Shown: positions 5,568 through 63,865 of the stretch, in pieces
How positions within the stretch are numbered: position 1 is the first letter of the stretch
Layout of the letters: every line of letters begins with the position of its first letter
Source: Octopus vulgaris
Taxonomy: Eukaryota
Direction: 5' to 3'
Length of the DNA: 64,000 bases
Assembly (NCBI GenBank): GCA_951406725.2
Contig: OX597832.1
Span: 1,612,001 to 1,676,000 of the forward strand
The notes under the pieces: generated by a model
Databases searched by the model: none
Told to the model about the DNA's origin: nothing
The model's input: the letters and a program-made list of their open reading frames with translations, nothing else
Made by a program: the position numbers and the translations under genes

Positions 5568-5967
5568 TTTATGGAACAATCAATATCAGTAATTGACTTG
5601 GGCTCGCAGAACCATCATGAATTAATAGTTAATCTATGAGTTGAGAATATGATTGCGTCAAATAGAATGAATGTAATTATCCTCTGTGTATTAATTTTTT
5701 TTTGTCCATATATATATATATATATATATATATATATATATATATATATATATATATTATGTGAAATAGAAAGATGAATAATCTTGTAGTAGATTAATCA
5801 AAAGTTTAACCGATACCTTAGTAGCAAAAATCACAGCAGTAAAACAGCACGGTTGGAGGTACAACCATATGGTGTTGCAACCGTGCGTTGGTGCGGATAA
5901 TTGAAATTAGAACATTATTGGTGAATTGAAGAAATGGAGCTGAACGCAGATTGAACAGAAATCGTTT

Positions 5968-6061
5968 TATTTCATTCTACACGTGTTTCGAAAGGCACAA
6001 ATTACCAAAATCCGATGGAATAATGGGACCATATTGTGTCTTTCTCTTCAGGAAGAAAATA
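5968..6061 (-). ncRNA. Type I hammerhead ribozyme motif
   Basis: Reverse complement of the motif at 7142-7235. Confidence 0.8.
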
Positions 6062-7141
6062 GGAAATCCGTTGGAAAAACAAAAACAGAACAGAGGCGGA
6101 GCAAAAACAAATCGAACTATGCTCCTAAGAGCCCATGGCGAAACTGTTTATCAGTGTATGTTGAGAACCGGTGGCTGAAGAATTCAACGGGTCAGGCATC
6201 GGTCAATCATGTGGGTGAGGGGGCGTAGATGTTCTTTGTGACCGAGAATAAAGTTCTGACTATTTAAGGAATATTGGATGTTTTATAAGGGGCGAGAAAA
6301 ATCTACTTAGAGACGTGTGTGTGTGTATACTGTTCTATATACGTGTGTGTTGGCGTAGGGGTAGAAAACATTTTTTGTGTACGTGTGTGCGTTTGATCGT
6401 TCGGCTGTCAGTGGCTACTGCCGTGATGACCGTTGGGTGGCAGAAAAAAAAAAAAAAAAAAAAAAAAAAATATACATCATGTTTTATGTGTGTGTGTGTT
6501 CTCATCTAAACCTGCCTTGTTACACTTATCTGGCTTTTAAATAGCGTTTATAAATAATACCGGCACCCATAACCCTTGGTAACAAATTCTGTAATAGCCT
6601 TTAAGATATCTACGATTAACCACTGCAAGGGGAATTACTCCTGTAAGACAAACGGGGCTTGGTTTTTTCACAGTGGGGGGTTTCCTTGACAAGGCAGGTT
6701 TAGATGAGAACACACACACACACATAAAACATGATGTATATTTTTTTTTTTTTTTTTTCTGCCACCCAACGGTCATCACGGCAGTAGCCACTGACAGCCG
6801 AACGATCAAACGCACACACGTACACAAAAAATGTTTTCTACCCCTACGCCAACACACACGTATATAGAACAGTATACACACACACACGTCTCTAAGTAGA
6901 TTTTTTCTCGCCCCTTATAAAACATCCAATATTCCTTAAATAGTCAGAACTTTATTCTCGGTCACAAAGAACATCTACGCCCCCTCACCCACATGATTGA
7001 CCGATGCCTGACCCGTTGAATTCTTCAGCCACCGGTTCTCAACATACACTGATAAACAGTTTCGCCATGGGCTCTTAGGAGCATAGTTCGATTTGTTTTT
7101 GCTCCGCCTCTGTTCTGTTTTTGTTTTTCCAACGGATTTCC

Positions 7142-7235
7142 TATTTTCTTCCTGAAGAGAAAGACACAATATGGTCCCATTATTCCATCGGATTTTGGTA
7201 ATTTGTGCCTTTCGAAACACGTGTAGAATGAAATA
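7142..7235 (+). ncRNA. Type I hammerhead ribozyme motif
   Basis: ttc-CTGAAGA-gaaagacacaa...ttgtgcctttc-GAAA-cacgtg-TA-gaa; intact core, 10 of 11 pairs in stem II, palindromic stem III acacgtgt. Confidence 0.8.
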
Positions 7236-7314
7236 AAACGATTTCTGTTCAATCTGCGTTCAGCTCCATTTCTTCAATTCACCAATAATGTTATATATAT
7301 ATATATATATATAT

Positions 7315-61015: not shown

Positions 61016-62725
61016 TAACTTAAATTTGATTGATTTAAGTGATGAATTGAAGCGATGAATTGAAACAACTGTTGCGCTTATCAATGTATTAATAATTTTT
61101 ATTAATCTTATTTCCACCTTCTCTCTTGGTTTATAATTGTATATATATATATATATATATATATATATATATATATATATATATATATATATACAGACAA
61201 AATGACAAGTATCAAAGCACAAAAGAACGGGGAACATATATTGCATGCTCAAATGAGCGTGTGTGTGTGTGTGTGTGTGTGTGTGTGTGTGTGTGTGTGT
61301 GTGTGTGTGTGTGTGTGTGTAGTGGGATTGTGTGGAACTGGCGCCTACTAAATTTACTATTGATTGATCATTGCAAGGCTCTAGTAACAGAAATTTGCAG
61401 GGGGACACTGTGTAATCGGAACAGACTTGGAACCATGTATTTGCTGAGTGAATGTTTTAAACGTGCAACCGCAGCAATAGTGCATACATACACGAAAGTG
61501 CACATACACACACACTTGTATAGAAATAAATCTTCCATTTCGGATGCGGAATAGGTCTAAGTAAATTAGAGGAAGGGTTACTAATGAAGGAGGTTTTCAT
61601 TTAACTGGATTAAATCTACTCATTATAGTGTATGTAATAAATGAATTACCTAAATGTAATATGTAATTCTGCTTTCAAAAGCAAAATTTTGACCTGCAGG
61701 TTATTTTTCTCACTGTAACATGCACTATATTCTCAATGGACCTTTTTTTAATGTTACATGATACCTTTTCCAAGCCAAATTATCTTAAACTGGTGTTTTA
61801 CTATTTCAAAGAAGAATACAAAATTACTTTACCAGCTGATATTATCAAAATGCATGATTTCTATATCTCATTTTCTTTCTAATCTGCTCGTTAATATCTT
61901 TTGTTCCATATACAAATTATGTGCATTATACATATGTGTGTGTGCGCGCGCGCGTGTGTGTGTGTGTACAGACATATAAATATGATCATACACGCGCATA
62001 CATATATGATTCATATGTATAATTCATTCGTGAAATCATCGTATTATCATTGTTTATCTATTTTAAATTCTGATTTTATTAGTCTGTCTAATAGACATGA
62101 CATTGACATTCTTCCAATGATCTCAGATAAAAGCGATCTACTGATATAAAGATAATAGCTACTGAATTATACATACGAACATGCACTTTCCGATTAACTA
62201 TTCAAATAAGCCCTTCATTATGTTCATTATATATTTGCAAATTTATTTCTCTCTGAAATGACTAGCGGATTTGCGGATAATTTATTTGAACGACATTGTT
62301 CTGTATACTTTCATTTTAATTTCCGTATATTTTTATATCTACCTCAGTTCATAATGAAATCCACTTTTTAATATTAACGTGACCTTCTGAGACGATGACT
62401 TTCCTGATTATTTCAAGGAACGTACTCGTATATCATAGAGCATTGTATATATATATATATATATATATATATATATATATATATATATATATATATTTAT
62501 AATTAATCAATATAGGGTGGCAAAAAAAATTTTGTAGAATTCTTTTTGCCACCAGCGGCCTAGTGGGAAAAAATTAAATAGTCATAAACCATTTTTAAGT
62601 TCAACATCACAATCAGGAACGGCCATAATAGGCCATTCACCCACTAGAAATAACAGCCAAAAGCTTCAACCGCAAAATAACATCAATTCCGTAAACCAGA
62701 GAAAATTAAAAACATTTACCCTGTA

Positions 62726-62832
62726 ATTTCTTAGACGATGCACCGTTTCGTCTACTGTTTAATGGTAAACTAACCTGATTAAATTAAATCAAGCCAATCT
62801 ACCATAGGCCCTTAGATTCATCAGTAAGAAAT
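62726..62832 (-). ncRNA. Type I hammerhead ribozyme motif
   Basis: Reverse complement of 63068-63174. Confidence 0.78.
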
Positions 62833-63067
62833 AGCCAAGTCGGAACAGATATTTTTCACGAGGCATTCCCGTTGCTGCCTCGGCAATATCTGACCTAAAA
62901 TTTTCAAATCGTCGCACTCGCGCCAAATTTATCGGCAGCAAATAAATATAAGCCGCCGATTCCATTACGGAATTTGGCGCCAGTGCGACGATTTGAAAAT
63001 TTTAGGTCAGATATTGCCGAGGCAGCAACGGGAATGCCTCGTGAAAAATATCTGTTCCGACTTGGCT

Positions 63068-63174
63068 ATTTCTTACTGATGAATCTAAGGGCCTATGGTA
63101 GATTGGCTTGATTTAATTTAATCAGGTTAGTTTACCATTAAACAGTAGACGAAACGGTGCATCGTCTAAGAAAT
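63068..63174 (+). ncRNA. Type I hammerhead ribozyme motif
   Basis: atttctta-CTGATGA-atcta...tagac-GAAA-cggtgcatcg-TC-taagaaat; 8-bp stem I, GUC site, first stem II pair mismatched. Confidence 0.78.
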
Positions 63175-63865
63175 TACAGGGTAAATGTTTTTTAATTTTC
63201 TCCTGGTTTACGGAATTGATGTTATTTTGCGGTTGAAGCTTTTGGCTGTTATTTCTAGTGGGTGAATGGCCTATTATGGCCGTTCCTTGATTGTGATATA
63301 TATATATATATATATATATATATATATATATATATATATATATATATATATAAGTGTAATCTCAGTGCTTCAAACATACGAATTTATGTACAATAATTCT
63401 CATGGCAAAATCCAACATTTGATTATGAGTGTCGAAAAATTCAGGGTGAAGGGTCACACAATTTAGTTGAAGTTGCATTATGCATCCCGTTTTATACCTA
63501 GAACTGTTATTTGTGGCTCTATTTCAACGAAAGATTGGAAAATTCAACACAGAAATCTCAACCAAACACTGAAATCTGTTGTTCTCATTCAGATAATGGC
63601 ATTAAATTTAGTTGTCATTGTGTTATCTTTAATTATTCCACCTTCACCCAAGATATTTCTTTAAGTATCTCTTATCTCTTTATCTTTTCGTTTGTCGTTT
63701 ATGTTTGTCTCTGATTTTCGTCAGCTTTTGCATTCTTGGGGCAATTTTGAACCTACTAATGCATTTTACTTGTAATGTCAGAAGACGTTGCGTATCTATG
63801 TAACAACTTGGTACGTATTTACTTGAAATGTGCGTTTTAAATACATTTGAAATATCAATAATTGT

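What the first reader, a model, noticed from the sequence alone, without database searches (positions are those of the whole stretch)
5757..63297. Recurrent fold-back, hammerhead-bearing non-coding elements embedded in (TA)n arrays
Seen: three sequence-unrelated insertions (5757-7292, 29618-30188, 62497-63297) share one plan, (TA)n - arm - short spacer - inverted arm - (TA)n. Judged by hammerhead polarity, the arms are joined at their 5' ends and point outward into the microsatellite. Two carry an intact hammerhead core on each strand. None encodes a recognisable protein. Known: PLEs carry type I hammerheads in pseudo-LTRs, can have inverted terminal copies, and the Hydra group favours (TA)n. 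Inference: these are either a class of palindromic non-autonomous retrozyme-like units mobilised by PLE RT/GIY-YIG, or products of target-primed reverse transcription started from both ends of a cut in (TA)n.
Basis: partly seen in the sequence, partly recalled or inferred. Interest (0 to 1): 0.88.

Follow-up and report, generated by a model that had tools for sequence, protein, structure and literature searches.

The report
Two-ended Penelope and retrozyme insertions
These mirror-image, ribozyme-bearing pieces sit in TA repeats with one short and one long end, are the ends of two protein-coding jumping-gene families plus a non-coding tandem RNA element, and were likely written from both sides of one DNA cut, which would show how such non-coding elements get into animal genomes.

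Summary
The three fold-backs are real but are not one class of palindromic units. E1 (5758-7292) and E2 (29618-30188) are 3' ends of coding Penelope-like retroelements (PLEs); E3 (62497-63297) is a 492-nt tandem hammerhead retrozyme. The 'spacer' is the unpaired 5' overhang of one arm, and junctions differ between loci, so the palindrome forms at insertion. Each family ends at two fixed sites, and two-ended insertions almost always use one of each: 150 discordant against 2 concordant loci over five families (three PLE, two retrozyme); 15 of 15 predicted far ends were right. Both arms of a locus share one template (0.7% against 4.1% difference). Best reading: reverse transcription primed from both ends of a cut in (TA)n, one start site per end, then microhomology joining. 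Inverted end plus one-sided tail is known for PLEs; the strict pairing, and the same signature on retrozyme arrays, I did not find in print. E2 is an exception, with a duplicated flank. The scan noted insertion-built PLE palindromes before in another genome (e1-7858806). Empty sites, RNA and the retrozyme's partner enzyme are not shown.

The parts
5708..5757 (.). (TA)n left of E1
5758..6520 (-). E1 long-ended arm: 3' end of a Hydra-like coding PLE, ending 219-220 nt after the hammerhead cut
5758..5907 (-). E1 tail (150 nt) between the short and the long end site; present on this arm only
5978..6051 (-). type I hammerhead, E1 left arm
6519..6520 (.). E1 head-to-head junction, 2-nt overlap
   Evidence: L031
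6519..7292 (+).
7152..7225 (+). type I hammerhead, E1 right arm
7293..7314 (.). (TA)n right of E1
29530..29575 (-). inverted local copy of E2's right flank (44 of 44 identical, other family copies 85-89% over this stretch)
29576..29617 (.). (TA)n left of E2, part of the inverted copy
29618..29804 (-). E2 left arm: short end, internal loss of 29924-30159 (with the hammerhead)
29802..30188 (+). E2 right arm: 3' end of a Neptune-like coding PLE, short end
30046..30077 (+). minimal type I hammerhead with U3-A8 core pair, conserved in the family
   Evidence: variant described in PMC4209133
30189..30220 (.). (TA)n right of E2
30221..30266 (-). end of another repeat family that abuts (TA)n (Helitron-like 3' end; label recalled, Pfam gave no hit for its frame)
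55891..56578 (-).
62446..62496 (.). (TA)n left of E3
62497..62974 (-). E3 long-ended arm of the 492-nt retrozyme (ends about 238-242 nt after the cut); 62930-62970 is its unpaired 5' part
62734..62824 (-). type I hammerhead, E3 left arm
62971..62974 (.). E3 head-to-head junction, 4-nt overlap
62971..63297 (+). E3 short-ended arm (ends 131 nt after the cut)
63076..63166 (+). type I hammerhead, E3 right arm
63298..63352 (.). (TA)n right of E3

Best explanation
E1, E2 and E3 are head-to-head insertions of two coding Penelope-like families and one non-coding tandem retrozyme, whose families end at two fixed sites with one site at each end, likely because a Penelope-type enzyme cuts both strands of (TA)n and each DNA end primes reverse transcription at a different fixed site of one RNA. 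SHOWN: two end sites per family; one short and one long end per two-ended insertion; locus-specific junctions; both arms from one template variant; RT and GIY-YIG frames in the families of E1 and E2. INFERRED: a double-strand cut in (TA)n; one RNA engaged at both sites; the downstream (long) RT displacing the upstream cDNA; joining of the two cDNA 3' ends by short microhomology with fill-in; for E3, read-round of a circular or multimeric RNA that writes the tandem array at insertion, by an enzyme borrowed from an unidentified PLE. E2 is an off-path event: one primed end plus a DNA-templated inverted copy of that end and its flank.
For: End pairing. E3 family: 11 of 12 best loci two-ended, all short+long; of 40 loci picked by an exact short end, 31 long at the far end, 1 long stub, 3 other, 5 no inverted arm, 0 short-short; of 36 picked by a long end, 24 short, 2 short stubs, 1 unclear, 1 other, 8 no inverted arm, 0 long-long. 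E1 family: 25 of 33 distinct loci short+long, 6 one-armed, 1 interrupted, 1 complex, 0 concordant; far end predicted right in 15 of 15, and 2 of 2 unpredicted also discordant. E2 family 9 discordant, 2 concordant. E4 family 8 of 8 with both ends in (TA)n, of 20 loci. Large second Hydra-like family 6 + 19 of 19 evaluable. Sum 150 against 2 (P 2e-42 at 50:50). One template: arms of a locus differ by 0.67% against 4.1% between loci, closer than the median in 43 of 43; whole units 1.3 substitutions within an arm, 2.0 between arms, 18 between loci. Two primings: in 66 E3 loci the short arm reaches further 5' in 31, the long in 20, within 10 nt in 15; in near-ties the short arm leads in 9 of 10 (P 0.02). 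Junctions of the 31 loci: 18 overlaps, 5 blunt, 8 insertions. Protein: YRDD, SDKT, C-terminal VY..YVG; model pTM 0.76, best folds telomerase RT, E 7.5e-10. Biochemistry of another PLE: cuts and extends both strands, two internal start sites that bound the tail (PMC11167929).
Against: No empty site or intermediate was seen, so the double cut is inferred. Samples are best hits or exact-motif hits, hence young copies. 13 of 76 sampled E3 loci have no inverted arm and 4 have an inverted arm with another end. Short insertions are mostly near-perfect hairpins (17 of 20 within 25 nt, 9 within 3 nt against 1.3 expected; only 3 of 46 longer ones), which fold-back followed by centre deletion would also give. 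Arm likeness could be raised by later gene conversion. In vitro the start site did not differ between strands, so the pairing has no biochemical basis yet. No PLE with sequence like E3 or E4 was found (three PLE families compared with E3, one with E4). E2 and L103 break the rule.
Confidence: 0.72

Rival explanations
1. Self-priming or fold-back makes a hairpin copy, the endonuclease resolves it at two different sites, and long palindromes later lose their centres (self-priming: Arkhipova 2013; 'EN-mediated resolution' of the tail: Craig 2021).
For: Near-perfect hairpins are enriched among short insertions; arms share variants; E2 looks like DNA-templated copying; passages.
Against: A fold-back of a short-start cDNA cannot supply the tail, and a fold-back of a long-start cDNA predicts the long arm reaching further 5'; the short arm leads in 31 of 66 and in 9 of 10 near-ties. 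Very young, near-identical E1 copies already have lopsided centres (20 of 23 differ by over 25 nt).
Confidence: 0.13
2. The first end primes on RNA at the long site; the second end primes on the newly made sense DNA strand at the short site, and trimming before joining sets the arm lengths.
For: Gives strict pairing and shared variants without two RTs on one RNA.
Against: Needs the long arm to be trimmed back past the short arm in about half of loci; 7 of 66 long arms lie almost wholly within the tail while the short arm runs on.
Confidence: 0.1
3. The palindrome is itself a non-autonomous unit that moves whole.
For: Shared outline in three places of one window.
Against: Junctions differ from locus to locus; E1 and E2 continue into coding PLEs elsewhere.
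Confidence: 0.02
4. Assembly or long-read fold-back artefact.
For: No listed contig piece of four public runs bridges E3's own junction (1148 pieces not shown).
Against: An artefact would not add a tail to exactly one arm or stop at family-fixed sites; arms differ in indels and substitutions; contigs of other runs hold many left-arm to right-arm joints at different positions (15 listed, 82 not shown).
Confidence: 0.02

Closest known systems
Endonuclease-bearing Penelope-like elements with inverted 5' pLTR and one-sided tail (PMC3846280, PMC8557442)
   Same: Head-to-head inverted copy, tail on one end only, type I hammerhead near the 3' end, microsatellite target, partial tandems (3.6-kb repeats at C1:119.52 Mb).
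   Different: Tails are 48-150 nt, not 30-40; the tail is called optional there, here it is paired almost without exception (one end long, one short); the papers explain it by self-priming or endonuclease resolution.
Poseidon PAc of Anolis, two internal RT start sites (PMC11167929)
   Same: Two fixed starts bounding the tail; both strands cut and extended; AT-rich target; start sites near the ORF start (long end 48 nt before the ATG in E1's family).
   Different: In vitro no difference in start site between strands and no pairing was reported in the text I read; sites lie 30-40 nt apart.
Animal non-LTR retrozymes (PMC7229834; bioRxiv 10.64898/2026.07.22.740005)
   Same: Non-coding tandem units with a type I hammerhead each, low GC (37%, 34%), hundreds to thousands of copies.
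   Different: Units of 492 and 494 nt are at the long end of those described; arrays are head-to-head, two-ended with fixed short and long ends in (TA)n. Those papers tie retrozymes to PLEs by co-occurrence and phylogeny, and the preprint's discussion raises local amplification by unequal crossover.
LINE-1 twin priming (recalled, not read)
   Same: Second target end primes a second cDNA; 5'-to-5' joining by microhomology.
   Different: There the second start is variable and the two parts do not overlap; here both starts are fixed and the arms overlap over hundreds to thousands of bases.

Membership tests
EN+ Penelope-like element (E1 family) | Single ORF with telomerase-like RT | tested here: met
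   895-aa frame with YRDD; fold search ranks telomerase RTs first; Pfam and PDB sequence searches gave no RT hit
EN+ Penelope-like element (E1 family) | C-terminal GIY-YIG endonuclease | tested here: inconclusive
   VY..YVG and conserved Y, G, R, H, E, N columns across 46 homologues; no Pfam hit; not aligned separately by fold
EN+ Penelope-like element (E1 family) | pLTR with hammerhead, partial tandems, inverted 5' copy, tail | tested here: met
Hydra clade (E1 family) | DKT in place of DKG; no CCHH; CxxC and CxH around E and N; (TA)n target | tested here: met
   SDKT 121, CNLCVSE 855, CPHW 883 against section 11 of PMC8557442
Hydra clade (E1 family) | RWK motif | tested here: inconclusive
   R37 W38 conserved, third residue L
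Hydra clade (E1 family) | CxCX5C linker | tested here: not met
   absent from this family, present in 35 of 46 aligned sequences; so filed as Hydra-like, not Hydra
Hydra clade (E1 family) | Placement in the clade by RT phylogeny | not tested
   no reference sequences held
Neptune clade (E2 family) | RT upstream of C-terminal GIY-YIG with CX2-5CxxC linker and CCHH | tested here: met
   YLDD frame upstream of an EN frame with C-x4-C-x2-C linker and C..C..H..H in L187/L188; Pfam GIY-YIG 24 bits, cut-off 22.6; no unbroken full ORF seen
Neptune clade (E2 family) | Placement by RT phylogeny | not tested
   called Neptune-like on motifs only
Non-LTR retrozyme (E3) | Tandem units each with a type I hammerhead | tested here: met
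   492-nt period, up to about 10 units per locus; core CTGANGA in 101 of 101 parsed motifs
Non-LTR retrozyme (E3) | No coding capacity, no LTR, low GC | tested here: met
   longest ATG frame 66 aa, GC 37%; no PLE frame joined to the arrays in 106 loci (hits in L001, L009, L116, L166 are separate neighbours)
Non-LTR retrozyme (E3) | Self-cleavage and circular RNA in cells | not testable with these tools
   one run guessed to be RNA covers all 30 bins but is contigs and may be DNA
Palindromic mobile unit / MITE | Same centre and same two ends at many loci | tested here: not met
   junctions differ and the two ends are different sites

The most novel reading that the evidence does not exclude
Penelope-type integration is an asymmetric two-ended reaction: one ribonucleoprotein holds one RNA at two fixed start sites and gives one to each end of a double-strand break. 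Animal non-LTR retrozymes carry their own pair of start sites and are inserted this way from circular RNA, so their tandem arrays and inversions are written in one event rather than grown later.
Probability: 0.55. Interest if true: 0.78.

Novelty: new variant of a known kind. Interest (0 to 1): 0.56.

Why it matters
How Penelope-like elements make their inverted ends and one-sided tail, and what moves animal retrozymes, are both stated as open in the papers read. A symmetric (TA)n target cannot tell the two ends apart, so a 150:2 one-long-one-short rule has to come from the inserting complex; it turns a descriptive oddity into a sharp prediction for the existing in vitro system. The same footprint on two non-coding retrozyme families is locus-level evidence that PLE enzymes insert them, and it names the RNA sites (131 and 238 nt after the ribozyme cut) to mutate. 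Very young families of both kinds are at hand in this genome.

Tried and rejected
Rfam found no hammerhead; its hits were microsatellite and hairpin noise. Pfam, PDB-sequence and profile searches did not name the E1 protein. A homodimer prediction for residues 1-480 gave no verdict (score 0.13). E2 as a DNA transposon with terminal inverted repeats, or as an insert in a small palindromic element: rejected, since the left flank is a local copy of the right one and the flank family has one such end. Idea that arms stop at the ribozyme cut: 5' ends cluster there only in short insertions; arms that pass a cut show no excess (5 of 44, 4 of 37), so not supported as a general stop. Equal arm length in E1 (about 770 nt each) is taken as chance; E1-family arm extents are uncorrelated (rho 0.22, P 0.31). 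Search for the retrozymes' partner by sequence likeness to PLE ends gave nothing. E3's own junction was not bridged by any listed contig piece in four runs, which cannot show absence. Pattern count added nothing. Minimum-energy folds do not give the hammerhead fold for E1 and E2 (z -0.09, 0.89), as expected for motifs with a weak stem III, so folding was not used as support.
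Full report
Observation. The window is G000:C19:1612001-1676000 of a 2.8-Gb, 227-contig genome. All three inverted structures exist between (TA)n tracts. A type I descriptor finds outward-pointing hammerheads on both arms of E1 and E3; Rfam lists none among 130 weak matches. 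E2 has a U3-A8 variant at 30046-30077 on the right arm, kept across the family; this variant, and pairs of such motifs on opposite strands 100-700 bp apart, are described in PMC4209133 (part 1 of 4 read).

What each is. E1's arms match a young family (1326 candidates, 40 scored) that continues upstream into an 895-aa frame. Its model (pTM 0.76) matches telomerase RTs best; it has SDKT, YRDD, a C-terminal VY..YVG, CxxC and CxH, no CCHH, but lacks the CxCX5C linker found in 35 of 46 aligned sequences. By section 11 of PMC8557442 it is Hydra-like; I do not file it in the clade. Tandem copies put the long end 48 nt before the ATG. E2's family (819 candidates) has an RT frame followed by a GIY-YIG frame with zinc linker and CCHH: Neptune-like, no unbroken ORF seen. 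E3 is a 492-nt unit in tandem arrays (2824 candidates), GC 37%, longest frame 66 aa, with no PLE frame joined to it in 106 loci: a non-LTR retrozyme by its DNA features.

The rule. Each family stops in (TA)n at two sites: E1 about 70 and 220 nt after the ribozyme cut, E3 131 and 238, E2 48 nt apart. E3: 11 of 12 best loci are head-to-head, all short+long. An exact short end occurs 408 times, a long end 603 times on the forward strand (reverse count inflated by overlaps). Of the first 40 short-end loci in genome order (one already held and one neighbour skipped), 31 have the long end opposite, 1 a long stub, 3 another end, 5 no inverted arm, 0 a short end. Of 36 long-end loci on C1 not already held, 24 have the short end opposite, 2 a short stub, 1 is unclear, 1 other, 8 no inverted arm, 0 a long end. 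E1: 25 of 33 distinct loci short+long, none concordant. From 30 ORF-start loci, 17 new ones showed an inverted arm; I predicted the unseen far end for 15 and all 15 were right, and the 2 unpredicted were also discordant; 12 without a visible inverted arm were not followed, and one short end (L226) is not followed by TA. E2's family: 9 discordant, plus L103 (short and short+7) and E2 itself. A second retrozyme family found in the window (E4, 494 nt, 3014 candidates): 8 of 8 loci with both ends in (TA)n discordant, of 20. A large second Hydra-like family (22995 candidates): 6 of 30 loci showed both ends in (TA)n, all discordant, and 19 of 19 evaluable of 20 further pairs. Sum 150 against 2; stubs not counted.

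Template and priming. Arms of one E3-family locus differ by 0.67% against 4.1% between loci, and are closer than the median in 43 of 43 loci with at least 60 shared bases. Whole units differ by 1.3 substitutions within an arm, 2.0 between arms and 18 between loci. So both arms and all units come from one template variant, though later conversion could add to this. In 66 loci the short arm reaches further 5' in 31, the long in 20, 15 within 10 nt (extents read by hand from BLAST ends). Equal extents are enriched (10 within 3 nt against 0.76), almost all in short insertions (17 of 20 within 25 nt against 3 of 46); in near-ties the short arm leads in 9 of 10. Junctions show overlaps, blunt joins and short inserts, some copied from nearby (18, 5, 8 of 31); that this resembles microhomology-mediated joining is recalled knowledge.

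Mechanism. Inferred: the PLE endonuclease cuts both strands of (TA)n, each 3' end starts cDNA at one of the two fixed sites of one RNA, the trailing RT displaces the leading cDNA, and the two cDNA ends anneal by a few bases and fill in. A palindromic target gives the ends no identity, so independent choice would give about half concordant loci; the pairing must come from the complex. PMC11167929 (parts 1-2 of 4 read) shows a PLE protein cutting and extending both strands from two internal sites that bound the tail, with no strand difference reported. The main rival is self-priming with endonuclease resolution (PMC3846280 passages; PMC8557442 passages) plus later centre loss; the hairpin excess in short insertions fits it, the short arm's lead does not. 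E2 is off-path: 29530-29768 is an inverted copy of 30266-30160 and 29923-29802, including 46 bp of flank identical to its own right flank, best read as DNA-templated copying.

Artefact. Contigs of other runs hold many joints between left-arm and right-arm positions (15 listed, 82 not shown), as distinct junctions would give on a palindromic reference; library types are not on record and one run may be the source sample. No listed piece bridges E3's own junction. Fixed one-sided tails are not what fold-back artefacts make.

Known and new. Inverted copy plus one-sided 30-40-nt tail is known for PLEs. Retrozyme mobilisation by PLEs is proposed from co-occurrence and phylogeny (PMC7229834 passages; bioRxiv 10.64898/2026.07.22.740005 part 1, passages and Discussion); 'inverted' occurs 0 times in the first and only in a reference title in the second. 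Searches (listings) and passages of PMC13282606 showed no report of strict end pairing or of this signature on retrozymes; the library lacks most subscription papers and I read no supplements, of which those of PMC11167929 and PMC8557442 may bear on it. The host looks like a cephalopod (recalled SINE likeness; the one homologue with a species name is from Argonauta), untested.

Verdict. Real; members of known kinds, not a new class; the value lies in a quantified insertion rule that reaches non-coding retrozymes. Interest 0.56.

Noticed in passing
window 55891-56578: Fourth element: second tandem retrozyme family (494-nt unit, hammerhead at 56173-56126 on the minus strand), unrelated in sequence to E3, with its own two end sites about 100 nt apart.
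   Followed up: yes
window 45052-45409: Another small insertion in (TA)n with a minimal hammerhead-like motif near 45205-45235 and an inverted 43-bp flank pair (45052-45094 / 45367-45409); matches the terminal repeat of an element with a 1093-aa frame in L070.
   Followed up: partly
window 53333-53410 (-), 53739-53957 (-), 49252-49582 (+), 7401-7840 (+): A further hammerhead-like motif and decayed pieces of Hydra-like PLE coding sequence; E1 sits just left of one such piece.
   Followed up: no
window 34628-34896 and 39072-39306: Two more fold-backs of 240-270 bp without long (TA)n flanks or a hammerhead hit; the second has relatives in fetched loci. Possibly MITEs or stumps of other families.
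   Followed up: no
L073:4973-7657 (-), E1 family ORF: Very young family (copies 98-100% alike) whose protein has lost three linker cysteines and has two long low-confidence, low-complexity inserts (488-558, 633-765); it may cut without the linker or be moved in trans.
   Followed up: no
L281-L330: A very large, young Hydra-like family with open 717-aa frames and intact CxCX5C linker (22995 candidates): a good candidate for biochemistry and for the retrozymes' partner.
   Followed up: partly
L118: Six retrozyme units in one array where units 2 and 5 share a variant the others lack (period three), as a trimeric template or a later duplication would give.
   Followed up: no
E3 family hammerhead: First pair of stem II is A-U, G-U, U-U or A-C, never the usual G-C, in 101 parsed motifs; cleavage triplet splits GUC 53, GUA 48.
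   Followed up: no
window 26624-26998 and 30221-31090: Helitron-like pieces: Pif1 2B domain hit for the first; the second has a hairpin-ended terminus that abuts (TA)n in many copies (label recalled).
   Followed up: partly
window 41736-41893 / 60568-60725, 60025-60735, 43007-43447: Mariner-like transposase frames and a 158-nt perfect inverted match 18.7 kb apart (label recalled).
   Followed up: no
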